Source: Gammaproteobacteria bacterium (GTDB lineage: Bacteria; Pseudomonadota; Gammaproteobacteria; G965209235). Taken from it: DNA of 64,000 nucleotides. Location: contig OZ242382.1 of assembly GCA_965209235.1 (NCBI GenBank), positions 10,613 to 74,612 of the forward strand. Reading direction: 5' to 3'. This document shows, piece after piece, positions 3,157 through 39,288 of the stretch (position 1 is the stretch's first letter; each line of letters begins with the position of its first letter). A program made the position numbers and the translations under genes. Under the pieces are notes generated by a model. The model worked only from the letters and a program-made list of their open reading frames with translations. It searched no databases and was not told the DNA's origin.

Positions 3157-3248
3157 GTGAACTCTACGGGCGCATCAGTCTCAAACAGTGGGTCTGCCGC
3201 ACCAAACGTGCCTCGATACGCATGAACCCTGAAGCAACCTGTGCTGCG

Positions 3249-20283: not shown

Positions 20284-20300
20284 TCAAGCACTCAGTCGAG

Positions 20301-21918: not shown

Positions 21919-22358
21919 GATTCTTTGCCCTCTTCAGCATCATCAACGCCGATTTCAGCGTCGTCACTATCACTATCACTGTCACGATCGTTGCGGTCGG
22001 GTGTGTCGCCAACAGACTGTCGGCCTTCGCGCTCAGCACGCACTTGCATCAGCAACTGCGACTCACCCGACTCCAGTTCATCCTCACGGCGCACGATCAT
22101 ATGGCGCACCACTACATCACTGACGCGCAACATCTCGTCAAGTTCTTCGCGAGCCTCATGCGCACAACTAAAGTTGACAAGATAGTAGTCAGCCTTGTGC
22201 AAGCGCTGCATTTCGTAGGCCAGCGTTCGCCGGCCGATATCTTCGCTACGATGGATCGTGCCATCTTTCTCAATAATTTTTAGAGCTCTTTCGATACTCG
22301 CACCCCTTCGCTCAAGCATATCAGGGTGGGTGAGAAAGACAAGTTCGTAGGTGCGCAT
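21915..22358 (-). CDS. rpsF: 30S ribosomal protein S6
   Basis: MR.YE.VF..HPD, ED.GRR.LAY...LHKA.Y.L.N, V.R.MI; acidic C-terminal tail. Confidence 0.95.
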
Positions 22359-22373
22359 TCAAAGCCAAGACAA

Positions 22374-22394
22374 CCCATGCGGCACACGCATGGG
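22374..22394 (-). terminator. Hairpin between the dcw cluster end and rpsF (terminator or rpsF leader element)
   Basis: 8-bp stem CCCATGCG/CGCATGGG with 5-nt loop, followed on the minus strand by TTGTCTT; only 15 nt before the rpsF ATG. Confidence 0.4.
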
Positions 22395-22410
22395 CCGCTT
22401 TCATTGCGAA

Positions 22411-22992
22411 TTATATGGTGCGGAGCACATCGATTCGATGAACATCCCTTTGAAGGGTGCGCGCACGCGCAATTGATGCGGCATCCGTGGTCGAAATTTG
22501 CTCACCACGAACGAAGAGTTTGAACACTTGTCTTTCCCGTCTGGAGCGGCCGATATCCCAGATACTAGGGTCGGCATCTGCCGTGTTGTCACACAAGTGC
22601 ACTTCACCTGGGCATCGTCCCTCGACCACGTCAACCAGTTCCATCGCATCTGACCACCACGGCTCAAGGGCCCGAATTCGCGCGTGCTTCAGGTTGAGCT
22701 CGCGTGCGTGGTGCAACACCGCGTCGCAGTAGCCGACATCCTCACGAGAACCCAGGTCAGCGAATAACGCCGTGACTGCAGGCACCTGCCCCCAGTGGTC
22801 ATGCAACCACGGCGGCAAGTCATCGGTTGTACGCTCCACCGAGCCAGGAAAGCGCGCAAGGTGTGCTATCTCAAAGCTTTCCAGTGGTGGGCGGGTCGCC
22901 GACAGCAAGACAGGTCGATGTTTTCGCCAGACCGCATCTGGCGACCCATCAGTCAACGGTGAGGTTCCAATCACGATGGCATGTGTGGCCAT
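22411..22992 (-). CDS. Highly degenerate, truncated FtsZ-like protein (193 aa) in the ftsZ slot
   Basis: Last gene of the dcw cluster. HAIVIGT ~ IKVIGVG; TALFADLGSREDVGYCDAVLHHARELNL ~ [28 protein letters not shown]; LEPW ~ TKPF; EVHLCDN ~ SLITIPN. Likely start ATG 22992. Confidence 0.55.
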   Translation of the reverse strand: MATHAIVIGTSPLTDGSPDAVWRKHRPVLLSATRPPLESFEIAHLARFPGSVERTTDDLPPWLHDHWGQVPAVTALFADLGSREDVGYCDAVLHHARELNLKHARIRALEPWWSDAMELVDVVEGRCPGEVHLCDNTADADPSIWDIGRSRRERQVFKLFVRGEQISTTDAASIARARTLQRDVHRIDVLRTI

Positions 22993-22996
22993 GACT

Positions 22997-23833
22997 TTAG
23001 TGCAATCCTCGCATGCAGGCACCCAAGAGCGCTAATAAGCCGGTGTTGGATTCGATGACAGTCTGCAACGCGCCAGTCTCGAGCCGAGATCCAAACGTCG
23101 CTTGCGTCGCCTCCAGTGCTCCGACATGCACAGCATCTCCCGTCGCCGGGCTCGGCAAAAGTCCGACTTTGATCGTCGATCGCTTGGGCCTGTTGGCGCC
23201 TGAAAACAACTCTTCGAACAATGTCTCAAACGCCTCGCGATAGCGCATGCGATCGACGCGCCCGTCCAACGTGGCATCATCAACCCACCCTGCGTCATCA
23301 GAGCCCCCGGCCCCACTCACGAAAACGCACGACGCACTGACAAACGTCCAACCCGTATCACTTCGTACCCAGGACGCTCCAGATACATACCCCTCATCGG
23401 CCAAGAGTGTGAGTAGCTGTGTTGCCGCCTCACGACTAGCGCGAAGAGGTGCGAGCAATTTCCACGCCACGGGATAGTTCACGACCCCCTGCCGTTCTTG
23501 ACTCCACACCGCAGCAATGGCGTCGTGCCATTGCTGCGCATCCTCACCCGAAGTGAGATAGGTCTTTAGAGGCGGGACGCCCCAATACGCGGTGTACTCC
23601 GCAATCACCGGGGACGAGTCTGGCACGCGGACCCCTTGTCTCCACCGAAAGTGAACCAAAGACAACTCTTGCTGTTTTTCCTTTGGCAGCCGTGACACGA
23701 CAGACGTCAACCACTCAGCAGCATGATTCGATGTCTCGGGCGCCGCAGTGATGCCATACACCTTCACTTGTGTTCGTGCCTGCATCGCCAATATCCAGTA
23801 CCTCTCAGTCAATAAGAGAAGGCAGCTTCTCAC
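22997..23833 (-). CDS. Highly degenerate FtsA-like protein (278 aa) in the ftsA slot
   Basis: GTGA-coupled to ftsQ. RYREAFETLFEEL ~ RYTELLNLVNEEI; TGDA ~ TGGA; GALEATQATFGSRLETGA ~ GLAACAQRVFHTQVRIGA; VKVYGITAAP ~ VNIIGVGSCP. Confidence 0.65.
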   Translation of the reverse strand: MRSCLLLLTERYWILAMQARTQVKVYGITAAPETSNHAAEWLTSVVSRLPKEKQQELSLVHFRWRQGVRVPDSSPVIAEYTAYWGVPPLKTYLTSGEDAQQWHDAIAAVWSQERQGVVNYPVAWKLLAPLRASREAATQLLTLLADEGYVSGASWVRSDTGWTFVSASCVFVSGAGGSDDAGWVDDATLDGRVDRMRYREAFETLFEELFSGANRPKRSTIKVGLLPSPATGDAVHVGALEATQATFGSRLETGALQTVIESNTGLLALLGACMRGLH

Positions 23834-24591
23834 GCGTCTACAGTGCGCCGACAGTGAACGGCGTAAAGATCCGGCGCCGTTGTGACACCCGCAGAATAGG
23901 TTGTTACCACACGAATGTTCCGCCGATCCGGTGCGTAAGCAAGATATGCCAACGCCCGAGCCAAACGTGTGGGAAATTCGCGGCGACCCAGTTCAATACG
24001 CCTCGCCCCGTTTACGACAACCGCCCAAGACGTTACAGCGTCACTGGGCACACACACAGCATCCACAGAAATACCGTTAGATGCCATGTGGACAGCTGTG
24101 ATCAACGAAATCGCTGTAAGGACGTCGTCATGGGCGAGCTCTCGATCGGAATCGATAACTGGCAGGCGCGCGATGAGGTCGTCGATCAGCGGCGGCGGCA
24201 AAATCGTGGCATCGGCAAAAATAAGCCGATGTCGCTTGGTAATCGCAATCGGCGGTGCGTTACGCACCACGACATCAATCCCGCGGTCAAACGTGAGCTT
24301 GGCCTTGATGTACTCCGCACTGGGCAAGATGTCATTGAAGAGACCAATGGCATCTTGCGTGAGACACGTCCGTTGTTTCTTGCAGCGTTGGAAAAACTGC
24401 TGAGCAACAGCCTCTGGGTCAAACCAGATCGCTTCTTCTTGATGGGCATCTGTGACGCTTATCCGCATCCACATCGGCTCATACGTCATCACGGCCATAA
24501 TCAAAATCATGAGCGGCGACACAACCGCCGCCACCCACAAGATGACCGTATTGCTCCGAACTGTCGGGAGCGAGTACTCGTGACTACGCAT
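23830..24591 (-). CDS. ftsQ: Divergent cell division protein FtsQ
   Basis: Follows ddl; single N-terminal TM; POTRA-like LP...I.....D.GI.V.V....PIA; SW.VVVNG...IELGR....RL.R; terminal Y..G. Likely start ATG 24591. Confidence 0.65.
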   Translation of the reverse strand: MRSHEYSLPTVRSNTVILWVAAVVSPLMILIMAVMTYEPMWMRISVTDAHQEEAIWFDPEAVAQQFFQRCKKQRTCLTQDAIGLFNDILPSAEYIKAKLTFDRGIDVVVRNAPPIAITKRHRLIFADATILPPPLIDDLIARLPVIDSDRELAHDDVLTAISLITAVHMASNGISVDAVCVPSDAVTSWAVVVNGARRIELGRREFPTRLARALAYLAYAPDRRNIRVVTTYSAGVTTAPDLYAVHCRRTVDA

Positions 24592-25483
24592 CAAGGCAAT
24601 CACCAACCGCCAAGGAGATGAGTTTGTCAATCACATCCTCGAATGACCATCCCCTAAGAAGAGCGGCTTTCGGGACGAGTGACTGAGCCGTCATTCCCGG
24701 CGTGGCGTTAATCTCCAGCAGATGTAGCGCGTCGTTGTGAACAATCAAGTCGACGCGTGACCAGTGTCGCAGCCCAATCAGCCGATGGGCTTCCAGCGCA
24801 ACACGCTGGGCTTGTATGATCACGGATGACTCGGTTACAGGCACGTATTGCGTGTCGCGCCGAGAGTATTTCGCGTCGTAGTCATAAAACGCATTTGCTG
24901 CGCTAATCCATAACGGCTGAAGTGGGCAGTTGTCTATGATGGCAACCGTGCATTCGCGTCCGTCAGCCACGCATTCGGCGAGCACATCCCCATGTTTAGC
25001 AGCCATGTCAAACGCCTCATCAATCGGCGCGTGGTTTCGTCCGGCAATTGACATGCCCACCGATGACCCTCCGCAGTTGGGCTTGATGAAGGCTGTGCCG
25101 CCAAACGCCTGACAGGCTTGTTGAGCTTCTTCGATCGAAGTCACTAAGCGCCCATCCAGTACCGGCAACCCACACCTTCCCCATAGCGACAAGCAGGCAA
25201 ACTTGTTCATCGCTAACGCCGAGGGACTAGCGGCGCTCCCGGTGTACGGGACCTTGAACATCTCTGCGATCGTGGCTACAGCCCCGGACTCGCCCGGAGC
25301 GCCGTGGCACGCATTAAAAACCACATCTGGCCTGTCAGACATGAGTTCTCGCCCGAGATCCTCCAACGGAATCAGGACCGGCTGATGTCCCAGTTGGCGG
25401 GCCGCTTGAAAAACCGCATCCGCAGAGCGACGTGAAATATCTGCTTCGCTGCGATTGCCACCCCAAGCGATGGCTACTCTCAT
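24584..25483 (-). CDS. ddl: D-alanine--D-alanine ligase
   Basis: GG..SE..IS..S, HG.PGE.G, IKP..GGSSVG, FYDYDAKY omega loop, RVD, LEINATPGMT. Confidence 0.93.
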   Translation of the reverse strand: MRVAIAWGGNRSEADISRRSADAVFQAARQLGHQPVLIPLEDLGRELMSDRPDVVFNACHGAPGESGAVATIAEMFKVPYTGSAASPSALAMNKFACLSLWGRCGLPVLDGRLVTSIEEAQQACQAFGGTAFIKPNCGGSSVGMSIAGRNHAPIDEAFDMAAKHGDVLAECVADGRECTVAIIDNCPLQPLWISAANAFYDYDAKYSRRDTQYVPVTESSVIIQAQRVALEAHRLIGLRHWSRVDLIVHNDALHLLEINATPGMTAQSLVPKAALLRGWSFEDVIDKLISLAVGDCLDA

Positions 25484-26895
25484 TGCGAGGGGGACATCAA
25501 CGACGAGGCCAGATTGCTCACGTCACCGGCCCCTTGGATCAAAATGACGTCGTCTTCTTTGACAATCGCTTTCAACGCATCCATTACTCGACTCAACGTT
25601 TTGGGAAAGACGGGAGTGACTTGACGCTGCTCACGGATCACCCGGCACAAGTCCTCCGTGGTCCCGCCTTGATGAATCGACTCTCCAGCCGGATACACGT
25701 CCAGCAACACGAGCTCATCCACACTCGCCAGCGTGGATGCAAAGGCATCGAGATGAAACGATGTGCGGCTGTACCGATGCGGCTGGAACACCACCACCAA
25801 TCGCCTCTCTGGCCAGCTCGCGCGCACGGCGGCAAAAGTGGCTTCCAATTCCGTCGGATGATGTCCGTAGTCGTCAACAACCAGTGTCTTCACACCGAGC
25901 GCCGTCGTCTCCCCGCGCACCTCCATGCGCCGATGAACCCCTTCGAAGCTCATGAGCGCAGACAAAGCCGCGTCGCGCTCAACCCCTTCAATACTGGCTA
26001 TCGTCAAAGCTGCCACCGCATTCAACACCATGTGCTGCCCGCGCAGCGGCGTTGATACCTCAGTGGGCCCTCCGCCAAAGATGCCATGGGTCACAAAGGT
26101 TGCGCCATCTTGCTTCAGTTCGATGTCTGTGACACGGACGTCAGCATCAGGATGCGCGCCGTAGGTCACAACTTTTCGAGGCACCCGCGCAGCCATCTGC
26201 CTGAGTACGGCACTGTCCGTCCCCACCACGGCATAGCCAAAAAAAGGCAACCGATGCAAAAACGCTTCGAAGTGCGCGATAAGCTTCTTCATGTCACCGT
26301 CAAATTTCTCGAGGTGATCAGCATCAAGGTTGGTGACGATCGTGATATCGGGCGCCAAACTTTCAAAAGTCCCATCGCTCTCATCAGCTTCTGCCACCAT
26401 CCAACCATGACGGACCAGCGCTCGTCCTTTCCCTAGTCCTGCCAGCAGCCCTCCGACAACAGATGTTGTCGGCATCCCGCCGTGAGACAGAAGATGTGAG
26501 ACCATGCCGGTGGTCGTCGTTTTGCCGTGCGTGCCCGCCACCGCAATGCCGTTGTAGAGACGCATTAATCCCGACAACATCTCAGCGCGAGGAATGACGG
26601 TCGCAACCGTTCTGGCGTATGCGAGTTCAAGATTGGTATCCGGTACCGCTGGCGAATACACCACCAAGTCAGCACCGCGCGCAGCGTGCGTTTGATGCCC
26701 TATGGCAACATCAACACCTAACGCGACAAGTCGGCGCGTTTGCGGGGATGGGTTGGCATCAGATCCCGTGATGTGATAGCCCATGTGATACATGAGCTCA
26801 GCGATCCCGCACATCCCTGAGCCGCCAATCCCAATGAAGTGCACACGGCGAATACGCGCAAGTGGGCCGTGCGCGTCTCGCGCATGATCCCTCAC
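25480..26895 (-). CDS. murC: UDP-N-acetylmuramate--L-alanine ligase
   Basis: HFIGIGGSGM, AGTHGKTTTT, EADESD, DDYGHHPTE, FQPHRYSRT. Confidence 0.96.
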   Translation of the reverse strand: MRDHARDAHGPLARIRRVHFIGIGGSGMCGIAELMYHMGYHITGSDANPSPQTRRLVALGVDVAIGHQTHAARGADLVVYSPAVPDTNLELAYARTVATVIPRAEMLSGLMRLYNGIAVAGTHGKTTTTGMVSHLLSHGGMPTTSVVGGLLAGLGKGRALVRHGWMVAEADESDGTFESLAPDITIVTNLDADHLEKFDGDMKKLIAHFEAFLHRLPFFGYAVVGTDSAVLRQMAARVPRKVVTYGAHPDADVRVTDIELKQDGATFVTHGIFGGGPTEVSTPLRGQHMVLNAVAALTIASIEGVERDAALSALMSFEGVHRRMEVRGETTALGVKTLVVDDYGHHPTELEATFAAVRASWPERRLVVVFQPHRYSRTSFHLDAFASTLASVDELVLLDVYPAGESIHQGGTTEDLCRVIREQRQVTPVFPKTLSRVMDALKAIVKEDDVILIQGAGDVSNLASSLMSPSQ

Positions 26896-27956
26896 GCGTT
26901 CAGTCGCTCAACAATTTGCTGCGCAATCCGTCGCGCGGCTGCGACAGAAGCCACTTTCTCATCAATGTCAACAGGGTTGGGTATCACGCGGATCTCTTCG
27001 ATCGCGTCATGCAAAGCCTCACCTCCATCCGCTTGCTCAACGATCTTCACCCAAGGGCGACCAGCGACAAACTGGGCATTCGCGCGCTGATGATCTTTAG
27101 CAGCATGAGGCAGCGGAACAACGATGGCCTTCCGGGGAGCGCTCACAATCTCAGCCAACGCTGACGCACCGCCACGCGTCACGATGACGTCAGACTTCGC
27201 GATGTCATCTTGGATATCCGTCGCGTACTCCACCAAATCCACGGTCACGGTCTTTGACATGCGCGAAGACAGCGCCTTAAGTTCCCGACGCACCGTTTCA
27301 TGAAGAAGCCGCCCTGTTACCCAAGTCACATGTAAATCATGCCCGTGGAACAACGAGTGCCACAGCAAGGTGAACAGCCCTTGAGCGCCACTGCTACCAC
27401 CGACGACGAGAACACGACACGCTTTTTTGTTTGGGGGAGGAGCCATCCCCTCAAAAGCCGCGCGCAGCGGTATCCCCTCTCTGTGGTACTTTTTCCCTTG
27501 CAGCGTTTGATTAAATCCGAGATAAACCCGTTCACTAAATGGGGTCAGGGCCTTGATTACCATGCCGGAAAAAGCATTTTGCTCAAGAAGCCATATCGGA
27601 CGACGAGCGCCAACCGCGGCAAAGCTCCCAGGGGTGGCTGCATACCCTCCCGATGAAAACACAAGATCTGCATCACACCGCTTCAAAATTTGGCGTCCCC
27701 GCAACAAAGGGATCAGCGCCAGTTTCAGAATGCGGACGGCGATATTTGCGTTACCAGGTATCAAATCGGAGCACTTTATCGCCGGAATACCGGCCTCCTT
27801 AGCGAGATTCCTTTCAACTGCGGTCATGCTGAGCCAACAACTGTCGACACCGAGAAGTTTGAGTTGCTCGGCAATCGCCAGCAACGGATACACGTGTCCA
27901 GCTGTCCCGCCACCCGCGAAGGCGACAGTGAAACGTCGAGATTTGGATCGCGGCAT
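26892..27956 (-). CDS. murG: Lipid II GlcNAc transferase MurG
   Basis: GGGTAGHVYP, GGY, EQN, GGSSGA, RGGASALAE, HQRANA. Likely start ATG 27956. Confidence 0.92.
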   Translation of the reverse strand: MPRSKSRRFTVAFAGGGTAGHVYPLLAIAEQLKLLGVDSCWLSMTAVERNLAKEAGIPAIKCSDLIPGNANIAVRILKLALIPLLRGRQILKRCDADLVFSSGGYAATPGSFAAVGARRPIWLLEQNAFSGMVIKALTPFSERVYLGFNQTLQGKKYHREGIPLRAAFEGMAPPPNKKACRVLVVGGSSGAQGLFTLLWHSLFHGHDLHVTWVTGRLLHETVRRELKALSSRMSKTVTVDLVEYATDIQDDIAKSDVIVTRGGASALAEIVSAPRKAIVVPLPHAAKDHQRANAQFVAGRPWVKIVEQADGGEALHDAIEEIRVIPNPVDIDEKVASVAAARRIAQQIVERLNA

Positions 27957-27963
27957 ATGAAGG

Positions 27964-29088
27964 CTAGTCGGGGCGGTTGAGAGAGAGGCCAATCAAGAAC
28001 GAGGCTGACACCATGAATGTCCCTCCTCGCGACGCCATAAAAACCGGTTGTCCGGTGACCGGCATCCATCCATAGTTGACAAGAATGTGAATGACCGCTG
28101 GCACCGCAATGAGCATTGCTGCTCCGGTCGCGACAACGGCACGCCATTCATCGCGCACATCACGGTCGCCCATGCTACGAGAGACGAGCACAAACACCAG
28201 TAGCGCGACAAGTGATTGTATGAGCGCCGCCCAAGCTGTTCCCCAATTCCGGTGCGCCGCGGCCAGCATGAAGTCAGAGTCAGCATCAGGGATACTCGCT
28301 TTTCTGCGTCCTTCTTCCAATCCCAGACCACTCAGCCCGCCAGCGTCGATCGCCTCGCTAGCTTTTGTGGCTTGAAATGACGGCACTGCATCTTGAGAAG
28401 TAAAGGCCTCTAGACGGCGCTGGACGTGTGCATCTGCATAGTCGCTCATGATGAAAGCCACACAAGCCACCAACAGGGCAACCGCACTCGGAACCACCCA
28501 CTTCCAAGGTGGGTCGGCCATCATGACAGTGAAACCAATCACGGCCATCAAGACGAGCGCTCCCGACGTGTCTGGCTGCAACGCCGTCAAGACTGCGATG
28601 ATGATTGACATGACGCCCACACTCAACCATCGAAACAGACAGGTATCGTCGCGCCGTTGTTGTCGCAGCCCTTGCCGCGAAAGCGCCAACATGGCAATGG
28701 CAAAAATCATGGCCAGCTTGGCCAATTCACTTGGCTGCACGCTCACGCCGGCCCCGGGAATGGCGATCCAGCGGAATGCTCCCTTCGTGCTCGTCCCGGC
28801 AATAAACGGCGCCAGCGCCAGTGCAAGACTGATCCCAAGTGCAACCCAAAACCAGAAAGTGCGGGTCAACCACGGCCGCGGTATCCGCCAACCGACTATC
28901 AGTGCGACCCCCGCAATGGCGTAGTACAAGAGCAACTTGAAGCCTGGCGCCGTGACGCTGGCCTGAGACGCGATGCCGTACTGCGTCGCAAACCCGACCA
29001 CCGCCAAGCTGCCCAAGACCGCAAGTAACGTACGGTCCCAGTACGCCCAGCGCGGAATAGCGATCACAGTGCGCCTCGTTCCATCCAT
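27964..29088 (-). CDS. ftsW: SEDS peptidoglycan glycosyltransferase FtsW (divergent)
   Basis: GA.RWI, QPSELAKL, QPD, PDADSDF (catalytic Asp position), PVTG..S.GG; lies between murD and murG. Confidence 0.85.
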   Translation of the reverse strand: MDGTRRTVIAIPRWAYWDRTLLAVLGSLAVVGFATQYGIASQASVTAPGFKLLLYYAIAGVALIVGWRIPRPWLTRTFWFWVALGISLALALAPFIAGTSTKGAFRWIAIPGAGVSVQPSELAKLAMIFAIAMLALSRQGLRQQRRDDTCLFRWLSVGVMSIIIAVLTALQPDTSGALVLMAVIGFTVMMADPPWKWVVPSAVALLVACVAFIMSDYADAHVQRRLEAFTSQDAVPSFQATKASEAIDAGGLSGLGLEEGRRKASIPDADSDFMLAAAHRNWGTAWAALIQSLVALLVFVLVSRSMGDRDVRDEWRAVVATGAAMLIAVPAVIHILVNYGWMPVTGQPVFMASRGGTFMVSASFLIGLSLNRPD

Positions 29089-30302: not shown

Positions 30303-31273
30303 GACGCAATACTCCAGGCCGCAAGCAAGCAGCCTGCAACCGTCAAGATCCACAGGCGAGCCACCAACCGCGGCTCGGGTACGCCGCCAAGCTCCCAGTG
30401 ATGATGAATCGGCGCCATGCGAAGCACACGTTTCTTATTGCGTAACTTGTACGAACCCACTTGGGCAATCACTGACAGCGCTTCGATCACAAATAACACG
30501 CCAGCAATCGGAAGAAGGAACACTGCGCCTTGCAAGATCGCCGTTGTGGCAACCATGCCACCAAGAAAAAACGATCCGCTGTCACCCATGAAAACACGCG
30601 CGGGATGAGCATTGACACAGACAAACGCGAGGCAACCACCCGCGGCCCCAGCTGAAATCACCGCGACATCACCATGCGCAAAACTCAGCGATAAGGGAAG
30701 AAGAGCGGCTGCAAAGAACACGACGGCACACGCCCCTCCCGCCAGTCCATCCATACCGTCGGAGAGATTGACGGCATTGGTTGTCCCGACGATCACGACC
30801 ACACCAATCGCACCTACAACCAGCGCGCCCAACGAGATGGATCCCAGCCACGGAACAGCCTGAAGTGTTGGCAGTCCACCAGGCGCAAACGCCAATCCCG
30901 CCATGAACGCAACGCCAATGAGTATGAGACCAAGCATTTTGTAGCGCGGCTTAAGACCGTCGTGCGACCGACCAATGAGCTTCAGAGCATCATCGAGTCC
31001 GCCAAGCCCCCCGCAAGCCATCCCAACAGCAAGGACAGCCCAACCACGCCAACTCAGTGCAGACGCATGGACTGCCGCACTCGCGAGTGCGCCCATCATG
31101 ATGATGACACCCCCCATCGTTGGTGTACCCGCGCGGTCGTAGTGACTTTTGGGACCGACTTGACGGATCTGTTGCCCAATCCGCAAACGCTGGATTGTTT
31201 TGATCGTGACGTTGGAGACCAACAGACCCGCAAGCAGCCCGACCAGCGTGGCTGTGGCAATGGTTCCCGTCAT
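30299..31273 (-). CDS. mraY: Phospho-MurNAc-pentapeptide transferase
   Basis: GTPTMGG, LDD..K, NAVNLSDGMDGL, VFMGDSGS, MAPIHHHWE. Confidence 0.96.
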   Translation of the reverse strand: MTGTIATATLVGLLAGLLVSNVTIKTIQRLRIGQQIRQVGPKSHYDRAGTPTMGGVIIMMGALASAAVHASALSWRGWAVLAVGMACGGLGGLDDALKLIGRSHDGLKPRYKMLGLILIGVAFMAGLAFAPGGLPTLQAVPWLGSISLGALVVGAIGVVVIVGTTNAVNLSDGMDGLAGGACAVVFFAAALLPLSLSFAHGDVAVISAGAAGGCLAFVCVNAHPARVFMGDSGSFFLGGMVATTAILQGAVFLLPIAGVLFVIEALSVIAQVGSYKLRNKKRVLRMAPIHHHWELGGVPEPRLVARLWILTVAGCLLAAWSIAS

Positions 31274-32634
31274 GATGGCCGTTTCACCAAAGCATCCACG
31301 ACCTGATCAAGACCGGTGGCCCGAGACCCCTTGACCAGAATCGCGCCGCACTCTCGCGCCTGTTCAGTGGCCACACGGGCGGCTTGTTCAACAGTGACCT
31401 CAAGCCACGTGCCACCACATCGCGAGAACACCTGCCCCATTTCTCTCGCCAGCGATCCCACTGTGAGTACCGCGTCTATACCCAAATCAGCAGCTTCACG
31501 TCCCATCTGTTTGTGCCACTCAACACTCGATGGACCCAGCTCCAACATGTCTCCCACAATCGCCACCTTCGGTGTCTGTTCTTTGGCGAATCGTTCAAGC
31601 GCTGACCGCAACGAGACGGGATTGCTGTTGTAACTATCGTCAATCACAATCGCACCTGTATCGCGAAACCGGCGTTGGAAGCGTCTGGGCTCCATGTCGG
31701 CCAGCGCAATATCGCGCGCACATTGAGGGAGCGCCTCTCCTGCCAGAACAGCCGCCGCCAGCGCAGCCGCCCAGTTTCCCGCCTCAATGGCGTCACTTGG
31801 CACGACCGGAAGCTCCGCACTTTCGCCCCCCACGGACACCGTCGCTGTCTCCCGGTCGACGTGAGAAAAGGCCGCTTGATCACTGGCAAAGGTCTGGACG
31901 CCGTCAATGCAGAGTTCTCGGGCCAACGCTAGCAGTGTCGGATCCGCCTGCGGCAACAACGCAGCGATGTGAGATGGGAGAAGTCCTTTTGATTGCTCCG
32001 CGAGGCGCAGCTTCTCGCGCCTCACCGTCTGAATACTTCCCAATCCTTCGAGATGCGCCGCGCCGACATTGACCACGATGGCAAGGTCGGGTCTGACAGC
32101 ACGCGCCAGCTCAGACATATCCCCGCGCTCACTAATTCCCACTTCGCAAACGAGTGCCGCCGCGTGTTCAGGGGTGTTGAGCAGCGTTAATGCGACACCT
32201 AGTCGATTGTTGTAGCTGCGTTTTGATGCGCAAACAAGTCCTTTTGATCGCAAGGCTGCCGCGATCAGCTGCCGCACGGTCGTCTTGCCAGCTGAGCCGG
32301 TGACGCCAATGACTGGGCAGCTCAGTGTTGAGCGATACCAAGAAGCGATGGCAATGAGCGCGTCTCCCACATCATCGACAGCAATCAGTGTCATCCCGTG
32401 GGAGATGGTCGGGTTATCGGTGATCTGTGACCGGCAAACAAGAGCAACAACGGCGCCGCTGCTTCGTGCGTGAGACAGGTAACCGTGACCATCTGTACGC
32501 TGACCTGGCAGCGCTGCAAACATCACGCCATCCGCAACATCACGACTATCATGCGCGACGCCGGACCACGTGACGTTCGGTCCATGCACCTCGCACGCGT
32601 CGAGGACGGCGGCGCATTGCGCAACGGTGGGCAT
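31270..32634 (-). CDS. murF: UDP-MurNAc-tripeptide--D-Ala-D-Ala ligase
   Basis: DSR, TGSAGKTT, YNN.LG, AHLEG, DDSYNSNP, GDMLELG, VKGSR. Confidence 0.94.
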   Translation of the reverse strand: MPTVAQCAAVLDACEVHGPNVTWSGVAHDSRDVADGVMFAALPGQRTDGHGYLSHARSSGAVVALVCRSQITDNPTISHGMTLIAVDDVGDALIAIASWYRSTLSCPVIGVTGSAGKTTVRQLIAAALRSKGLVCASKRSYNNRLGVALTLLNTPEHAAALVCEVGISERGDMSELARAVRPDLAIVVNVGAAHLEGLGSIQTVRREKLRLAEQSKGLLPSHIAALLPQADPTLLALARELCIDGVQTFASDQAAFSHVDRETATVSVGGESAELPVVPSDAIEAGNWAAALAAAVLAGEALPQCARDIALADMEPRRFQRRFRDTGAIVIDDSYNSNPVSLRSALERFAKEQTPKVAIVGDMLELGPSSVEWHKQMGREAADLGIDAVLTVGSLAREMGQVFSRCGGTWLEVTVEQAARVATEQARECGAILVKGSRATGLDQVVDALVKRPS

Positions 32635-34169
32635 TAGCGAGCTCTCGCTGCCAGCGCCCGTGATGCGACATCCGCATCATGCAGCGGAACAAGCTTCGGT
32701 TCCCCGCGATCGAGCCATTTCTCCATTCCACGTCCGAGTATCAACACCACATCACCAGGGTGAGCACTGGCCACAGCAGCTTCAATGGCACGCTGTCGAT
32801 CCAAAATGAGCCGTACATCACCTCCCTTTCGTCTCACAGACTGTGCCATGACATTGGCAATGGCCGCTCGATCTTCCGTTCGTGAATTGTCTTCAGTCAC
32901 AATCAATACATCCGCTTGACCACAAACTCGACCCAACCCCTGACGTCTCGCGATCGGCCGACAGCCCCCGCCTCCGACAACGCACACAAGGCGCCCACCT
33001 AATTGTGGTTTCCACTCAGACATCACCTGCCAGGCAGCACCGCCGGTGTGGGCATCATCAATCACGATGGTCACATCGTCAGCTCGAAGAACTTGCGCAC
33101 GCCCAGGTGGCGGCGGGACGTTTGATAGGGCTGCGACCGCATCCGACGCATTCACGCCTTGTGACCAAAGCGCTCCCACTGATAGCGCAAAGCTCGCGAC
33201 TGACAGACGACCACTCGTGCGCACGAGTGCTTCACAGACTTCGCTGCCAACACGCAAGCGCACACAGGAACCTGTCGCGTTATCAGCAATGCTCTCAATC
33301 ACAACATCAGCACTTTGGTGATGAGTGCTACGAACACCAGGAAGCAGTGGTATTTGCGACTTCACTCGCACCACTTGTGCTCCCGATGCGATCGCTCGGG
33401 ACGCCATGCGCGGTGCGTATCGGCACGGCGACCATATCACGGCCGAACGCAAACCATAGGCCGCCCACAGCTGTGCTTTGGCCTCGACGTATGCACCCAT
33501 CGTTCGATGCAGATCAAGGTGATCCCGGCGTATCCCCGTAAAAACACCACACTGCACCGTGACATCGGCCATTCGACGCTCCAACAGCGCTTGGGAGCTC
33601 ACTTCCGCCGATAACCACCAAGACTGCCCGGCCTGAGCATCAAAATCAGATAACAATCGAGGCCACGCGGCGCGCGTGGGTGTGGTTTCCGTCGCTGTTC
33701 GCAATGTTTGTCCAATCAATCCCACACCTAACCCGCCAACCATTGCGCTGGGGTTTCCCATCTCATGCAAGGCATGCCCACACATCCACATCACAGTTGA
33801 CTTACCGTTGGTGCCTGTCACCGCAATGGTGCGATAGGGATGGCGCGGGGTGCGGTACACGTGGCGCGTCATCTCATGAGCCATCTTCGAGAGATGAGGA
33901 GACACAAGGCACGGCAATGTGGTACAGGCACCCTGACGGTCAGTCACAACCGCAACCGCTCCATTACGTTGGGCCTGATCCAGTGCGCGATCTGTTATGC
34001 GGTGAGATGCACCGACAAGCACAAGCACATCACCCGGCCGCACGTGCGCGGAATGGTGCGCGATTCCCGAAAACTCACGAGGCGGCGGATGAGACCAAGA
34101 GTGCACCCCACACAACGCCTCAATAATCCCGCACGGATACGCTCGGGATCGTGGCTCACTGCTCGGCAC
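32634..34169 (-). CDS. murE: UDP-MurNAc-dipeptide--meso-DAP ligase (divergent)
   Basis: TGTNGKST, TTP, EVSS, RDHLD.H, D.AHT, DNSR (for DNPR), GRG.E (for GKGHE). Confidence 0.88.
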   Translation of the reverse strand: MPSSEPRSRAYPCGIIEALCGVHSWSHPPPREFSGIAHHSAHVRPGDVLVLVGASHRITDRALDQAQRNGAVAVVTDRQGACTTLPCLVSPHLSKMAHEMTRHVYRTPRHPYRTIAVTGTNGKSTVMWMCGHALHEMGNPSAMVGGLGVGLIGQTLRTATETTPTRAAWPRLLSDFDAQAGQSWWLSAEVSSQALLERRMADVTVQCGVFTGIRRDHLDLHRTMGAYVEAKAQLWAAYGLRSAVIWSPCRYAPRMASRAIASGAQVVRVKSQIPLLPGVRSTHHQSADVVIESIADNATGSCVRLRVGSEVCEALVRTSGRLSVASFALSVGALWSQGVNASDAVAALSNVPPPPGRAQVLRADDVTIVIDDAHTGGAAWQVMSEWKPQLGGRLVCVVGGGGCRPIARRQGLGRVCGQADVLIVTEDNSRTEDRAAIANVMAQSVRRKGGDVRLILDRQRAIEAAVASAHPGDVVLILGRGMEKWLDRGEPKLVPLHDADVASRALAARAR

Positions 34170-36027
34170 TGGCGACGCTAAACGTCGGCACTAAGCCATA
34201 ACGCGCCACAAGTGCCTTTGAGATATCTCGAAAAATGGGACCCGCCACTAGCTGTGCATCGGAAACTGTGGATGCTGGAACGCACTCAACCGCAATGGCA
34301 ACCGCAAAGCGCGGTTGATGCACCGGAAAGAACCCAGCGATTAGAACGTGTTGAATGTGCTTTGGAACGCGCTTGCCAGCCGGCGGCTCGATGTTGCAAT
34401 GACGGCGAATAAGCTTTTCAGACAGATACCGGTCATCCTCATCACCGTCCTCTGCCACCGCGATCTGAACCGTTCCGGTCTTCGCAGCGATCTCAAATCC
34501 TGGAAGATCTGCGCGATCCCCCGTGCCTCCGATAACAACGGAACGCATCCAACGGGTCACCGTTTCGACATTGTCTTCTGACGCAATATGCGAGAGACAA
34601 GGTTGTGCCGGGATTGGCGCTCCCTTAGAACGGCTTGTGGTGGAAGCGTCCAGTCCCAGCAAAATCGGAGCCAGTGCTTTGTAGCACCCCTTACGAGCGA
34701 GTGCCGCGTAGGCGTTAACTAAGTGAACAAGCGGAATAAGCTTGCCGTGCCCATAAGACAGCCTCACGAACTCTCGCTTGGTGGATCCCGTGGATGGCAG
34801 CGAGCATTTGGCACGACCGCGAATATGCTCTTGGCTACAGATGCCCGCTTTGAGCAGCAGATCCGTAAATGGTGCGCCTCGGCGCTCGCCAACCTCCGCG
34901 TCACCATAAATCCGCTCTGCCAGAGCGATGGCAACGTCCTGAGATGAAATCTGCAGCGCTTTACGGAGAGAGATGAACTCGGGTTCAGAGGGTTTATGAG
35001 ATGTGTGATGAAACTGGTCTGACGGCTTCGTCACCTTTGATTCCAGCGCGGACAGATAAAGAAATGGTTTCATCGTTGACGCCGGTTCAAGTGCTGAGTC
35101 CATCGGGCGATTCACCTGAAAATCCGTAGATTCTCCGGAGTTTAAGCTCCAACCAGGCACAGATACACTGGCAATAACGCTCGACGTGGGAATGTCTACG
35201 ACGACCGCTTGCGCTGCTAATCCGAGCGACCGTTTTAATCCTCGTTTAAGCGCGTGATACGTCACGCATGAGACGGGCGCATCAAGCGTTGTCCACGCCA
35301 CGTGATGACGATCTAATCCCCACTGTAGCGTAGCTGTGTCCGCACGATCTGGCTGAACGAGATTCTGTAAATCCCATTCCATTTGCGTGAGAATCCATCG
35401 CGACTCATCTTGGAGTGGTGCGCGTCCAATGATCGTTCCGAGACATGATCCTTGCGGCGAGTACCGCTCGCGCACAAAACGAATATCAAGAGCGCGCCAG
35501 ATGCGGGTGGACCCGGCATCGCGATGTAACTGAGGTAAGGCGGCAAGCTCCATAGGGTCATCCGTGAGCGCAAACCACTTTTGCCCGCTCTCCCAAGCAG
35601 AGTGAGCCGCTTGACGCAACTGCTCGGTGTCACCGTAGTCTTGCAGTTCCATCACCCATGAGCTGTCGTTGACTAACTCGACGAGTGGGTCGACAGCAGG
35701 TTCATCTGTTTTCGCTTCTTCGCACCCTAACCCCAAGAGGTCGCATTGCGGATCATCCCCGAAAACGGATCGAGCTCTTTGTCGAATGTGGTCAAACGCC
35801 GACATGTCACGCTCGCTGGCCAACGCATCGGCCTCAGTCTGCCGGATACCGTACACGGCTTCCAGATCAAGCACGAGTGTGAATGAAGTTCGATCGACAG
35901 CGATGGGTGTTCCAGTGCGATCAACAATAGTTGGCCGGATGCCTTCCAGAGGGACAGGAATCTTCGGTGCGGCTTGAGCAGCGAACGTCAAAAGACATAC
36001 CACCGCACCAACAGTTGTCTTGTACAC
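34156..36027 (-). CDS. ftsI: Class B penicillin-binding protein FtsI/PBP3 (divergent)
   Basis: R.TIVDRTG.PIA, R.Y, TTLD, EPASTMK (SxxK), SSQ, SYGHG, AKTGT; position before murE; GAGGT RBS. Confidence 0.82.
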   Translation of the reverse strand: MYKTTVGAVVCLLTFAAQAAPKIPVPLEGIRPTIVDRTGTPIAVDRTSFTLVLDLEAVYGIRQTEADALASERDMSAFDHIRQRARSVFGDDPQCDLLGLGCEEAKTDEPAVDPLVELVNDSSWVMELQDYGDTEQLRQAAHSAWESGQKWFALTDDPMELAALPQLHRDAGSTRIWRALDIRFVRERYSPQGSCLGTIIGRAPLQDESRWILTQMEWDLQNLVQPDRADTATLQWGLDRHHVAWTTLDAPVSCVTYHALKRGLKRSLGLAAQAVVVDIPTSSVIASVSVPGWSLNSGESTDFQVNRPMDSALEPASTMKPFLYLSALESKVTKPSDQFHHTSHKPSEPEFISLRKALQISSQDVAIALAERIYGDAEVGERRGAPFTDLLLKAGICSQEHIRGRAKCSLPSTGSTKREFVRLSYGHGKLIPLVHLVNAYAALARKGCYKALAPILLGLDASTTSRSKGAPIPAQPCLSHIASEDNVETVTRWMRSVVIGGTGDRADLPGFEIAAKTGTVQIAVAEDGDEDDRYLSEKLIRRHCNIEPPAGKRVPKHIQHVLIAGFFPVHQPRFAVAIAVECVPASTVSDAQLVAGPIFRDISKALVARYGLVPTFSVASAEQ

Positions 36028-36031
36028 AGTC

Positions 36032-36472
36032 TTACCTCATTGCGTGAGTTCGCGACGTCGCGTCGAGTTGTTCACTCACCGCTTCGCCAATCGTTTGAGC
36101 TGCTGTCACGGCGTGTGGCTCATCAATGGCAAAAATCGTGCCCGCGATGATGGCTTCGAGATTGATTGCCTTACGCTGCATAACAGGCAGAGGATCGTTC
36201 ACAGCAATCCCAGCCGGATCACAAAAAACGGACGCACTCGGCACCCGTCCAGTGTTATCCGCATCTCCCCTCAATGTCTTTTCACAACCCGCTAGTTGGG
36301 ATCTCTCAGTGCTCAGATTGACGTCAACCACATGAAACCCAAGCATGGCGACACTGAGAGTGGCATTAATAACCCAAAGAGATCGCGTCAGTCTGCGCGG
36401 GTTGATCACGCGTCGCTGGACTGTCTCGCGAGGATCACGACGTTCCCAAGAATGATTTGGAGGTCTATACAT
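36032..36472 (-). CDS. Single-TM protein in the ftsL slot (possible divergent FtsL)
   Basis: Arg-rich N-terminus, one hydrophobic segment, short possible coiled coil; directly upstream of ftsI. Confidence 0.4.
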   Translation of the reverse strand: MYRPPNHSWERRDPRETVQRRVINPRRLTRSLWVINATLSVAMLGFHVVDVNLSTERSQLAGCEKTLRGDADNTGRVPSASVFCDPAGIAVNDPLPVMQRKAINLEAIIAGTIFAIDEPHAVTAAQTIGEAVSEQLDATSRTHAMR

Positions 36473-36475
36473 GTG

Positions 36476-37045
36476 TCAGGCCGCCTCCCGCGGATACTCA
36501 TGACATGGTGACTGCCAAAGATGCTCACACAGCGCCTTGCGCGTGGGCTCTGAACACAGTGGCAGAAGAGAGTGCCCTGCATCTTCTGGCGGAGCAAACA
36601 TGACTTTTGTAAACGTCTCAAGACCCCACAAGGAGATCACTGAACGCTCTAAGGAGACATGCAAATTGCGAGGCTGCGCATCACTCATGGCTAAGTGAAA
36701 ACGATGAATCTGCGGAATAACAAGCGTCGCTCCGGATGTTTCCAACCGAACTGCCAGTACTTGCACGGTATTCAGTCGCAACAAGATCTCTCGATCGCCG
36801 CGCAGTGACTGATCGGCCGCTTCTCGGACAGCGTTGTAGGAGCGATCAAAGTGTTCGCGACTCATGACGTTGACGCAAGGCAGAGACGGATCCAAGCACA
36901 CAGCTAATTCGCCTGTGTTGTCGCCGCCAAACCAGTTTGACGAGACATAACGACGCACTTCAATCGGAAGAGTAAGACGTCCCTTGGGGTCTAACACGAC
37001 GACTTGGGACTGCGCGTGCATGCCATTCGTAGTGGGGGCAGTCAT
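36476..37045 (-). CDS. mraZ: MraZ-like transcriptional regulator (divergent)
   Basis: LDPKGRLTLP first AbrB repeat; second repeat degenerate (LETSGATLVIP); first gene after rnpB. Likely start ATG 37045. Confidence 0.72.
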   Translation of the reverse strand: MTAPTTNGMHAQSQVVVLDPKGRLTLPIEVRRYVSSNWFGGDNTGELAVCLDPSLPCVNVMSREHFDRSYNAVREAADQSLRGDREILLRLNTVQVLAVRLETSGATLVIPQIHRFHLAMSDAQPRNLHVSLERSVISLWGLETFTKVMFAPPEDAGHSLLPLCSEPTRKALCEHLWQSPCHEYPREAA

Positions 37046-37158
37046 GTGCTTGCGCCAACATCGAGGCGAACGCAAGACTTTACATCATTTGCACATTCTG
37101 GCGCAAGTCTCTGACATTTTGGTTCATTATTGAAGCATTCTCCAACAATTCCCTTGGT

Positions 37159-37502
<344 letters not shown>

Positions 37503-39178: not shown

Positions 39179-39288
39179 TCAAAGGGGCAAAGCACCAACA
39201 CAGCGATTGTACTTTCACCCGGCAGATTACGAATGCGATGAATCACAACCTACAATCCAACGCTAAAGTGGCATGCGGCCTGCATACG

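What the first reader, a model, noticed from the sequence alone, without database searches (positions are those of the whole stretch)
22411..37045. Candidate novel division system: working peptidoglycan synthesis with a disabled FtsA/FtsZ cytoskeleton
Seen: ancestral dcw order is kept (mraZ, ftsL-like, ftsI, murE, murF, mraY, murD, ftsW, murG, murC, ddl, ftsQ, ftsA-like, ftsZ-like). Mur ligases, MraY, MurG and Ddl keep catalytic motifs. FtsQ, FtsL, FtsW and FtsI are strongly drifted, and FtsA and FtsZ have lost nucleotide motifs. LpoA, MltB, DacA and a D-amino acid aminotransferase are also present. Known: FtsZ-less bacteria (Chlamydiae, Planctomycetes, some endosymbionts) typically lack the gene rather than keep an inactive one. 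Inference: a walled gammaproteobacterium dividing without a treadmilling Z-ring (for example budding, aPBP/LpoA-driven growth, or another scaffold), or an intermediate in FtsZ loss.
Basis: partly seen in the sequence, partly recalled or inferred. Interest (0 to 1): 0.92.

Follow-up and report, generated by a model that had tools for sequence, protein, structure and literature searches.

The report
Cell-wall operon lacking FtsA and FtsZ
A small, apparently complete gammaproteobacterial genome keeps its cell-wall and late cell-division genes but has no recognisable FtsZ, FtsA or MreB, and two genes found nowhere else sit where ftsA and ftsZ normally lie.

Summary
The gene order is real. On the minus strand lie an mraZ-like gene, an ftsL-like gene, ftsI, murE, murF, mraY, murD, ftsW, murG, murC, ddl and a weak ftsQ-like gene.

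The last two ORFs (278 and 203 aa) are not demonstrably FtsA or FtsZ:
- They have no Pfam, PDB or profile match.
- Searches of 5.8 billion clusters (the 278-aa ORF) and 1.84 billion representatives (the 203-aa ORF) returned only the query itself, apart from one repeat-protein hit.

The genome is one 1.47-Mb contig with a clean GC-skew V and tRNAs for all 20 amino acids.
- Not found in it: FtsZ/tubulin, FtsA, MreB, MreC, a second SEDS protein, MinD, ZapA, ZipA, SPOR domains, Amidase_3 amidases.
- Present: FtsK, FtsW, FtsI, one class A PBP, LpoA, MurA, MurJ, most of Tol-Pal with CpoB, DacA, MltB.

In a sample of its class, 385 of 400 scored genomes have FtsZ.

So "no Z-ring, but peptidoglycan synthesis" is supported, and "disabled FtsA/FtsZ kept" is not shown. 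FtsZ-less gammaproteobacterial symbionts are already listed in reviews. This is therefore a new lineage and variant of a known phenomenon. The open question is what the two orphan genes do.

The parts
37157..37500 (-). RNase P RNA (rnpB), immediately upstream of the cluster
   Evidence: Rfam RF00010, 312.7 bits against a gathering score of 100
36476..37075 (-). mraZ-like gene (199 aa), weakly supported
   Evidence: NCBIfam MraZ E=0.0015, 18.2 bits. Pfam MraZ 11.8 bits. An 'LDPKGRLTLP' stretch can be read; that this resembles MraZ is recalled, not tested.
36032..36472 (-). ftsL-position gene (146 aa), one membrane helix, no family match
   Evidence: No Pfam or NCBIfam match. The sequence shows one hydrophobic stretch at about residues 31-50. 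No rsmH lies between it and the mraZ-like gene.
34156..36027 (-). ftsI (class B PBP, 623 aa), strongly drifted
   Evidence: PF00905, 76.5 bits. It is 23% identical to E. coli FtsI over 386 aa. STMK aligns with STVK, KTGT with KTGT, and SSQ with SSN.
24584..34169 (-). murE, murF, mraY, murD, ftsW, murG, murC, ddl
   Evidence: All match Pfam families above the cut-offs. FtsW is the only SEDS gene in the genome. Its SDF aligns with the TDF of E. coli FtsW; that this Asp is E. coli D297 is recalled.
23830..24630 (-). ftsQ-like gene (266 aa; 253 aa in the protein database), bitopic
   Evidence: Membrane helix at residues 29-47. Best hit in the genome to my FtsQ profile, E=0.056, 13.4 bits. E=1.4e-5 when only this region is searched. 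hhalign P=0.003 over 140 columns. No Pfam match. Only a self-hit in 5.8 billion clusters.
22997..23833 (-). Orphan gene A in the ftsA position (278 aa from GTG; 262 aa from ATG)
   Evidence: No Pfam, PDB or FtsA-profile match. Only a self-hit. Codon-usage score is +0.157 in frame and negative in the other five frames. No membrane helix; pI 5.8.
22411..23022 (-). Orphan gene B in the ftsZ position (203 aa from GTG; 193 aa from the ATG at 22992)
   Evidence: No Pfam, PDB or FtsZ-profile match. Only a self-hit plus one repeat-protein hit among 1.84 billion representatives. Codon-usage score +0.101 in frame. The ATG lies 4 nt after the stop codon of gene A.
22370..22398 (-). Terminator-like hairpin between orphan B and rpsF
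   Evidence: 12-bp stem with 7 G-C pairs. This is a pattern match only: 10 such sites were found in the 5.4 kb scanned, against 5.5 +/- 2.6 in shuffles.
47600..49183 (+). lpoA (LppC family), activator of the class A PBP
   Evidence: PF04348, 108.7 bits
59469..62510 (-). D-amino-acid transaminase, dacA, mltB
   Evidence: NCBIfam: 182.9, 276 and 283.8 bits. Only MltB exceeds its cut-off.

Best explanation
[quoted passage not shown] The bacterium has lost the cytoplasmic division and shape cytoskeleton: FtsZ, FtsA, MreB, MinD, ZapA and ZipA.

It keeps the membrane and periplasmic half of the divisome. That half comprises FtsK, the single FtsW-FtsI synthase pair, and drifted genes in the FtsQ, FtsL and FtsB positions. 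It also keeps a full lipid II pathway, one class A PBP with LpoA, most of Tol-Pal with CpoB, DacA, MltB and M23 peptidases.

The slot where ftsA and ftsZ normally lie holds two tightly packed orphan genes for soluble proteins. These are not recognisable as FtsA or FtsZ. Whatever their origin, they cannot be assumed to bind nucleotides or to treadmill.

Inferred mechanism, not shown: the cell is probably coccoid. It would divide without FtsZ by peptidoglycan synthesis directed by FtsWI and the class A PBP. FtsK and/or an unknown scaffold would organise the site, Tol-Pal would draw in the outer membrane, and M23 peptidases and lytic transglycosylases would separate the daughters, since no Amidase_3 amidase was found.
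For: Genome completeness:
- One contig with a clean V-shaped cumulative GC skew, 40 tRNAs covering all 20 amino acids, and a tmRNA.
- Completeness by marker genes is 89.07%.

Absences:
- PF00091 Tubulin and PF13809 Tubulin_2 gave no match.
- My FtsZ and FtsA profiles, built from 20 and 19 relatives, scored against all 29,691 six-frame pieces. The best results were E=2.3 and E=1.2, both at unrelated places.
- E. coli FtsZ, FtsA, FtsQ, FtsL, FtsB, MinC, MinE, MreC, MreD, FtsX, RsmH, MraZ and TolA gave no hit: 13 of 37 queries.
- The only MreB-family matches are two Hsp70 proteins.
- There is one SEDS gene only.
- No MinD above the cut-off, and no ZapA, ZipA, MreC, SPOR, Amidase_3 or bactofilin.

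Presences:
- A canonical four-domain FtsK.
- A class A PBP and LpoA.
- MurA, MurJ, TolQ, TolR, TolB, Pal and CpoB.
- Three M23 peptidases.
- A 130-aa bitopic orphan in the eno-[ftsB]-ispD position.

Calibration of drift:
- Ddl keeps 238.6 of a median 481 profile bits, and LpxC keeps 367.5 of 546.
- FtsZ and FtsA keep none of 622 and 714.

The orphans look like genes:
- Open frames of 278 and 203 codons.
- Positive codon-usage score in frame only.
- A 4-nt gap between them.

The assembly was reproduced by other contigs.
Against: - Small or fast-evolving proteins are unrecognisable in this genome even where synteny says they are present: the FtsQ, FtsL, FtsB, lptE and holA positions. Negative searches for ZapA, ZipA, MinE, FtsN and the like are therefore weak.
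- Marker completeness is 89%, and a separate replicon would not be seen.
- FtsI carries SSQ where SSN is expected. Whether it is active is not known.
- No expression data exist: no RNA run is listed.
- Nothing about cell shape, the presence of a wall or the mode of division is observed. All of that is inference from gene content.
- In Planctopirus, ftsI and ftsW can be deleted without a growth defect (passages). Retaining these genes therefore does not prove that they drive division.
Confidence: 0.7

Rival explanations
1. The two ORFs are direct descendants of ftsA and ftsZ. They have lost nucleotide binding and 35-47% of their length, but are kept, perhaps for a new or residual scaffolding role.
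For: - There are exactly two cytoplasmic-type genes, in the right place and order, with the first longer than the second. They sit between the ftsQ-like gene and a terminator-like hairpin.
- The same genome holds other genes conserved in position but unrecognisable in sequence: the ftsQ, ftsL, ftsB, lptE and holA positions.
- Weak leads only: hhalign of orphan A against FtsA gives P=0.076 over 64 C-terminal columns. An Atlas hit at 0.86 is to a cluster in which 63% of members carry PilM_2 (below the tool's 0.9 line). That PilM_2 is an actin-like family is recalled.
Against: - No significant similarity in any test.
- hhalign of orphan B against FtsZ gives P=0.22.
- No run of three glycines occurs in orphan B (sequence). 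That FtsZ carries a GGGTGS/TG box is recalled.
- FtsZ and FtsA are among the most conserved proteins of the relatives, at 44-75% pairwise identity to the seed. Housekeeping enzymes here keep half or more of their profile score.
- Both single-sequence folds were useless, with pLDDT 34.5 and 37.2.
Confidence: 0.3
2. The two ORFs have no function. They would be decaying remnants or chance frames, and division would be controlled from outside, for example by a host, as proposed for reduced endosymbionts.
For: - Orphan B's codon score (0.101) lies near the 5th percentile (0.109) of the 570 ORFs of at least 350 aa.
- Neither ORF has a homologue anywhere.
- The genome is small (1.47 Mb), and reviews tie ftsZ loss to a symbiotic life.
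- A Sel1-repeat protein and a TraC-like ATPase are present.
Against: - By my estimate from base composition, about 3.7% of random codons would be stops. Frames of 278 and 203 codons would then stay open by chance with probability of about 3e-5 and 5e-4.
- Both frames tile the interval on the operon strand, and their codon scores fall within the range of murE (0.090) and murD (0.130).
- Greedy ORF cover of the genome is 94.7%, and recA, mutS and addAB-like genes are kept. This is unlike a decaying genome.
- No ADP/ATP translocase was found, but that search's control rang in no genome, so it carries no weight.
Confidence: 0.15
3. FtsZ and FtsA exist but were missed, because of a second replicon, a gap, a chimeric assembly or another genetic code.
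For: - Marker completeness is 89.07%.
- In the class sample, two genomes of 100% completeness (G062, G150) lack a tubulin match yet have FtsA. Misses of this kind therefore occur.
Against: - The genome is a single contig with a regular GC-skew V and a full tRNA set.
- All six frames were searched stop-to-stop, so a frameshifted gene would still give partial hits.
- All three stop codons are in use: TGA 408, TAA 273, TAG 219 among ORFs of at least 250 aa.
- Contigs of 169,805 and 33,272 nt from two runs span the junction with 0 differences.
- The ancestral ftsZ-lpxC link is visibly broken.
Confidence: 0.05

Closest known systems
FtsZ-less gammaproteobacterial endosymbionts listed in reviews (Ca. 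Vesicomyosocius okutanii, Ca. Ruthia magnifica, Ca. Carsonella ruddii)
   Same: - Same class.
- Reduced genomes with ftsZ absent (Table 1 passage of PMC4164004, passage of PMC6952346).
   Different: - This genome has no kin at genus, family or order level among the genomes held.
- GC is 56.7%.
- It keeps a class A PBP, whereas V. okutanii is listed among bacteria without one (figure-legend passage of PMC8406291).
- It has two orphan genes in the ftsA-ftsZ slot.
- I did not examine the gene content of those symbionts.
Chlamydiae: FtsZ-less division organised by MreB/RodZ and FtsK with septal peptidoglycan
   Same: No FtsZ, while FtsK, FtsW, FtsI and peptidoglycan synthesis are kept (passages of PMC5147048; abstract opening of PMC11975371 in the listing).
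   Different: MreB, the proposed FtsZ substitute in Chlamydiae, is absent here, as are MreC and a second SEDS/bPBP pair. The phylum is also different.
Budding Planctomycetes
   Same: No FtsZ. Some budding members also lack MreB (passage). FtsK is conserved and appears essential (passages).
   Different: - The phylum is different.
- Here the dcw operon is intact and collinear from mraZ to ftsQ, whereas the review describes major losses in the planctomycete dcw cluster.
- Its Supplementary Table S1, which I could not see, may bear on how many planctomycetes lack both proteins.
Canonical gammaproteobacterial dcw cluster (E. coli mraZ-rsmH-ftsL-ftsI-murE-murF-mraY-murD-ftsW-murG-murC-ddlB-ftsQ-ftsA-ftsZ-lpxC)
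   Same: The order from mraZ to ftsQ is the same as in E. coli K-12. The order from murC to ftsQ is the same as in the three class relatives whose ORF maps I printed.
   Different: - rsmH is missing.
- murB, which lies between murC and ddl in those relatives, is elsewhere.
- ftsA and ftsZ are replaced by two orphans.
- lpxC lies about 225 kb away, behind three pilin-like genes.

Membership tests
FtsZ (tubulin/FtsZ GTPase), for the 203-aa ORF at 22411-23022 | Match to the tubulin/FtsZ GTPase domain profile | tested here: not met
   No Pfam match at E<=10. My FtsZ profile from 20 relatives gave only a negative score in this region, and that score fell on the FtsQ-like ORF. hhalign P=0.22. PDB phmmer found nothing relevant.
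FtsZ (tubulin/FtsZ GTPase), for the 203-aa ORF at 22411-23022 | Glycine-rich nucleotide-binding signature (GGGTGS/TG; motif recalled) | tested here: not met
   Reading the sequence directly shows no run of three glycines.
FtsZ (tubulin/FtsZ GTPase), for the 203-aa ORF at 22411-23022 | Two-domain length of about 360-440 aa | tested here: not met
   The ORF is 193-203 aa. The relatives' FtsZ are 364-443 aa.
FtsZ (tubulin/FtsZ GTPase), for the 203-aa ORF at 22411-23022 | Tubulin-like fold | tested here: inconclusive
   The single-sequence AlphaFold2 model has pLDDT 37.2. The Atlas gave no usable hit.
FtsA (actin-like ATPase), for the 278-aa ORF at 22997-23833 | Match to FtsA or SHS2 profiles | tested here: not met
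   No Pfam match at E<=10. PF14450 gave no match in the genome at E<=1. My FtsA profile from 19 relatives gave no hit. PDB phmmer returned 0 sequences.
FtsA (actin-like ATPase), for the 278-aa ORF at 22997-23833 | Actin-like fold | tested here: inconclusive
   AlphaFold2 pLDDT 34.5. hhalign P=0.076. The Atlas lead to a PilM_2-bearing cluster scores 0.86, under the tool's 0.9 line.
FtsQ/DivIB, for the 266-aa ORF at 23830-24630 | Bitopic topology: short cytoplasmic tail, one membrane helix, periplasmic domain of about 220 aa | tested here: met
   The most hydrophobic 19-mer is at residues 29-47, and no other such stretch occurs.
FtsQ/DivIB, for the 266-aa ORF at 23830-24630 | Sequence match to the POTRA or FtsQ domains | tested here: inconclusive
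   No Pfam match. It is nevertheless the best hit in the genome to my FtsQ profile (E=0.056), and hhalign gives P=0.003 over 140 collinear columns.
FtsQ/DivIB, for the 266-aa ORF at 23830-24630 | Position directly after ddl in the dcw operon | tested here: met
FtsZ-less bacteria with peptidoglycan | No ftsZ in a complete genome | tested here: met
   The caveat is 89.07% marker completeness.
FtsZ-less bacteria with peptidoglycan | Lipid II pathway and peptidoglycan synthases encoded | tested here: met
   MurA, MurC-G, MraY, Ddl and MurJ are present, with a weak MurB (58.5 bits). FtsW, FtsI and a class A PBP are also present. I did not search for MurI, Alr or UppS.
FtsZ-less bacteria with peptidoglycan | Peptidoglycan actually made | not testable with these tools
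   This needs labelling with fluorescent D-amino acids or muropeptide analysis.

The most novel reading that the evidence does not exclude
The two orphan proteins encoded in the ftsA-ftsZ slot are a previously unknown cytoplasmic division scaffold of a proteobacterium. They may be remodelled descendants of FtsA/FtsZ or newcomers. They would recruit or position the retained FtsK, FtsQLB-like and FtsWI machinery without tubulin-like or actin-like polymers.
Probability: 0.2. Interest if true: 0.9.

Novelty: new variant of a known kind. Interest (0 to 1): 0.6.

Why it matters
How walled bacteria divide without FtsZ is an open question. It has been studied almost only in Chlamydiae, where MreB is proposed to substitute, and in Planctomycetes, where the mechanism is unknown.

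This genome is a proteobacterial case lacking FtsZ, FtsA and MreB. Its late divisome, Tol-Pal system and dcw operon are still collinear with those of E. coli, so each missing or retained part can be compared gene for gene.

Two co-located orphan genes give a concrete candidate to test. If they prove inert, the organism would still show that FtsK, FtsQLB-like proteins, FtsWI and a class A PBP can persist without any known cytoplasmic organiser.

Tried and rejected
- Structure prediction of both orphans from single sequences gave pLDDT 34.5 and 37.2. The models were too poor, so I ran no fold search.
- The protein Atlas gave only sub-threshold leads for orphan A and no usable hit for orphan B.
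- PDB sequence searches of the three unassigned ORFs found nothing relevant.
- Complex prediction on the FtsQ-like, FtsL-like and FtsB-like proteins returned 'no answer' (score 0.22 against a mark of 0.34). This is no evidence either way.
- The look-up of sequencing runs listed no RNA holder. This says nothing about expression.
- Run X4, from another sample with the same species label, laid 0 reads. That is no test.
- The TLC (ADP/ATP translocase) search found nothing, but its control rang in no genome. It is uninformative.
- The idea that a remnant of ftsZ sits upstream of lpxC was rejected. Three pilin-like genes lie there.
- The idea that the orphans belong to a family within the genome was rejected. 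They have no paralogues.
- I first took 39157-40926 for LpoA. It is a pyridine nucleotide-disulfide oxidoreductase. LpoA is 47600-49183.
- I first thought rpsR was missing between rpsF and rplI. It lies at 21700-21933.
- Literature searches for this organism or for a comparable case found reviews and the Chlamydia and Planctomycetes work. They found no paper on a 1.47-Mb FtsZ-less gammaproteobacterium. That is all I can say about what is in print.
- Papers seen as passages only: PMC4164004, PMC5147048, PMC8406291, PMC6952346.
- PMC11975371 was seen only as the opening of its abstract in a search listing.
- I did not request supplementary files. Supplementary Table S1 of PMC5147048 may bear on the comparison with Planctomycetes.
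- The original genome paper on V. okutanii was not seen.

Full report
**What is in the window.**
The window is G000:C1:10613-74612 of a single 1,473,301-bp contig with 56.7% GC. Between 22411 and 37075, fourteen minus-strand ORFs lie end to end. Nine of them match Pfam families above the curated cut-offs:
- ftsI (34156-36027)
- murE (32634-34169)
- murF (31270-32634)
- mraY (30299-31273)
- murD (29064-30353)
- ftsW (27964-29088)
- murG (26892-27992)
- murC (25480-26895)
- ddl (24584-25483)

The other five have no Pfam match at E<=0.01. At E<=10, four still have none, and the first ORF scores 11.8 bits to MraZ. RNase P RNA lies just upstream at 37157-37500. Downstream follow rpsF, rpsR, a 345-aa membrane orphan, rplI and dnaB.

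- LpoA at 47600-49183
- A D-amino-acid transaminase, DacA and MltB at 59469-62510

**The five unassigned ORFs.**
- The 199-aa ORF has a weak MraZ match (NCBIfam E=0.0015).
- The 146-aa ORF has one membrane helix and sits where ftsL lies in E. coli. rsmH is missing between these two ORFs, and E. coli RsmH finds nothing in the genome.
- The 266-aa ORF after ddl has one membrane helix at residues 29-47. I built an FtsQ profile from 16 class relatives. Against all 29,691 six-frame pieces of the genome, this ORF is its best hit, but only at E=0.056 and 13.4 bits. The members' median score is 292 bits. hhalign gives P=0.003 over 140 collinear columns. I accept it as a drifted FtsQ on position, topology and this weak signal.

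**The two orphans are not demonstrably FtsA or FtsZ.**
- My FtsA and FtsZ profiles, from 19 and 20 relatives, give no hit to them. This holds even with all filters off, on this region alone, at E<=100.
- hhalign gives P=0.076 for orphan A against FtsA and P=0.22 for orphan B against FtsZ.
- PDB sequence searches find nothing relevant.
- Orphan A finds only itself, as a 262-aa call, among 5.8 billion clusters.
- Orphan B finds only itself, as a 193-aa call, and one repeat protein among 1.84 billion representatives read in full by HMMER.
- Neither has a paralogue in the genome.
- Single-sequence AlphaFold2 models are useless, with pLDDT 34.5 and 37.2.
- The Atlas gives only sub-threshold leads. 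One is a cluster in which 63% of members carry PilM_2, at score 0.86.

**The orphans nevertheless look like genes.**
- Their codon-usage log-odds are positive in frame (0.157 and 0.101) and negative in all five other frames. They fall within the range of murD (0.130) and murE (0.090).
- The ATG of orphan B follows the stop codon of orphan A by 4 nt.
- A 12-bp terminator-like hairpin lies between orphan B and rpsF. This is a pattern match only.
- Both are soluble, mildly acidic proteins without membrane helices.

**Whole-genome inventory.**
The contig looks like a complete circle. Its cumulative GC skew is a clean V with extremes near 650 kb and 1.43 Mb. It has 40 tRNAs covering all 20 amino acids, and a tmRNA. 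Marker completeness is 89.07%.

Not found:
- Tubulin/FtsZ and Tubulin_2.
- FtsA.
- MreB. The only matches are two Hsp70 proteins.
- MreC.
- A second SEDS protein.
- A third transpeptidase-family match beyond FtsI and the class A PBP, other than a weak one to DacA.
- MinD above its cut-off.
- ZapA, ZipA and DivIC/FtsB.
- SPOR domains, Amidase_3 and bactofilin.
- FtsX domains occur only in 456-aa and 832-aa frames, and E. coli FtsX finds nothing.

Found:
- A canonical FtsK with its 4TM, alpha, motor and gamma domains.
- One class A PBP, in an 876-aa open frame (851 aa from its first start codon), plus a weak transglycosylase match in a 739-aa ORF.
- Three M23 peptidases.
- With E. coli K-12 queries: MurA, MurJ, TolQ, TolR, TolB, Pal, CpoB, LpxC and all the dcw enzymes. 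In all, 24 of 37 queries gave a hit and 13 gave none.
- A 130-aa bitopic orphan in the FtsB position, in the order pyrG-kdsA-eno-[it]-ispD-ispF.

**How much weight the negative searches carry.**
This lineage evolves fast.
- RecA is at most 67% identical to any of the 80 kept loci.
- Two ORFs in the lptE and holA positions after leuS have no Pfam match.
- FtsI and FtsW are 23% and 25% identical to the E. coli proteins.

Negative results for small accessory proteins are therefore weak. For FtsZ and FtsA the case differs. Against profiles from the same relatives, Ddl keeps 238.6 of a median 481 bits and LpxC keeps 367.5 of 546. FtsZ and FtsA keep nothing of 622 and 714. A working FtsZ or FtsA that had drifted only as far as its neighbours would have been found.

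FtsI keeps STMK and KTGT aligned with the E. coli motifs, but has SSQ where E. coli has SSN. In FtsW, SDF aligns with the TDF of E. coli.

**Comparison with relatives.**
The nearest genomes held are related only at class level. None shares the genus, family or order. The ORF maps of three relatives show murC-murB-ddl-ftsQ-ftsA-ftsZ-lpxC and then secA. My searches recovered FtsZ in 20, FtsA in 19 and FtsQ in 16 of the 20 loci fetched around their ftsZ.

In G000 this chain is broken after the second orphan. lpxC, an M23 peptidase gene and secA lie at G000 256-261 kb, behind three pilin-like genes.

In a sample of the class, 385 of 400 scored genomes have an FtsZ match, and 343 of 348 among those of good quality. 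One further genome could not be scored. The 15 misses are:
- G000 itself.
- Three genomes of 0.3-0.4 Mb from one family.
- Seven drafts of 58-87% completeness.
- G062 and G150, both 100% complete. They do have FtsA and MreB, so their miss may be a gap.
- G396 and G250 of one family, both 72% complete. They lack FtsZ and a real FtsA, and G396 also lacks MreB.

Four unpublished genomes (G039, G140, G295, G307) are among those counted as having FtsZ.

**Assembly.**
Three runs of one sample and one study hold the stretch. Logan contigs of 169,805 and 33,272 nt from two of them span window 20000-26000 with 0 differences. The third covers 26 of 30 bins, with one difference at 20842. This sample may be the assembly's own source. 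The result therefore excludes an error of one assembler, not an error in the sample.

**Interpretation.**
Shown: a peptidoglycan pathway and the membrane-bound late divisome are encoded. FtsZ, FtsA, MreB, MinD and the Amidase_3 amidases are not.

Inferred:
- The cell is probably coccoid, since it has no MreB and only one SEDS-bPBP pair.
- It builds and splits its wall with FtsWI and the class A PBP with LpoA.
- Tol-Pal and CpoB handle the outer membrane.
- M23 peptidases, MltB and DacA remodel the septum.

What marks the division site is unknown. [quoted passage not shown]

The origin of the orphans is open. My rough odds are 30% remodelled ftsA and ftsZ, 15% inert remnants, and the rest unrelated lineage-specific genes.

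**Known or new.**
Reviews list FtsZ-less gammaproteobacterial endosymbionts: Ruthia, Vesicomyosocius and Carsonella. MreB is reported absent from some budding Planctomycetes. The phenomenon is therefore known.

What is new here:
- An order-level lineage without sequenced kin.
- Loss of FtsZ, FtsA and MreB together in a proteobacterium that keeps a collinear dcw operon and the late divisome.
- Two orphan genes exactly in the ftsA-ftsZ slot.

Noticed in passing
window 36472-36476 (junction of the mraZ-like and ftsL-like genes): rsmH (mraW), which lies between mraZ and ftsL in E. coli, is missing. E. coli RsmH finds nothing anywhere in the genome.
   Followed up: partly
G000 261180-265455 (L123:7181-11456), outside the window: Three adjacent ORFs of 462, 468 and 495 aa lie directly upstream of lpxC, where ftsZ lies in relatives. 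Two of them begin with a prepilin-type 'GFTVIE' N-terminus. One matches N_methyl and one matches Peptidase_S74.
   Followed up: partly
G000 1172426-1177954 (L124:4427-9955), outside the window: A 1842-aa protein whose only recognised part is a C-terminal FtsK/SpoIIIE ATPase domain (96.6 bits). It is a second, non-canonical member of the FtsK family.
   Followed up: no
G396 and G250 (class relatives, one family): A second lineage of the class lacks FtsZ and a real FtsA. G396 (2.5 Mb, one contig, 72% marker completeness) also lacks MreB, and its ddl is not in a dcw cluster. A third genome of the family (G045) has ftsA and ftsZ.
   Followed up: partly
G062 and G150 (class relatives, 100% complete): Neither has a tubulin-family match, although both have FtsA and MreB. 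In G150, ftsQ is followed by genes on the other strand. In G062, ddl is followed by same-strand ORFs that match none of my FtsQ, FtsA or FtsZ profiles.
   Followed up: partly
window 20747-21784 (-): A 345-aa ORF whose sequence shows many hydrophobic stretches sits between rpsR (21700-21933) and rplI. It has no Pfam match, and its listed start overlaps rpsR. priB was not found.
   Followed up: partly
window 58050-59542 (+): Two ORFs of 172 and 358 aa follow leuS and have no Pfam match. That lptE and holA usually lie there is recalled. This is another sign of how far accessory proteins have drifted.
   Followed up: no
window 34939-34947 (-) (FtsI residues 361-363): The SxN motif of the transpeptidase reads SSQ, aligned with the SSN of E. 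coli FtsI. STMK and KTGT are kept.
   Followed up: yes
window 1009-5375 (+): A 715-aa ORF has no family match. It is followed by a 782-aa ORF with a weak subtilase match (25.6 bits).
   Followed up: no
G000 451527-454001 (L029:442-2916) and window 42612-43214 (-): A TraC-like type IV secretion ATPase (824 aa) and a Sel1-repeat protein (200 aa) are present. These could be hints of conjugation or host interaction.
   Followed up: no
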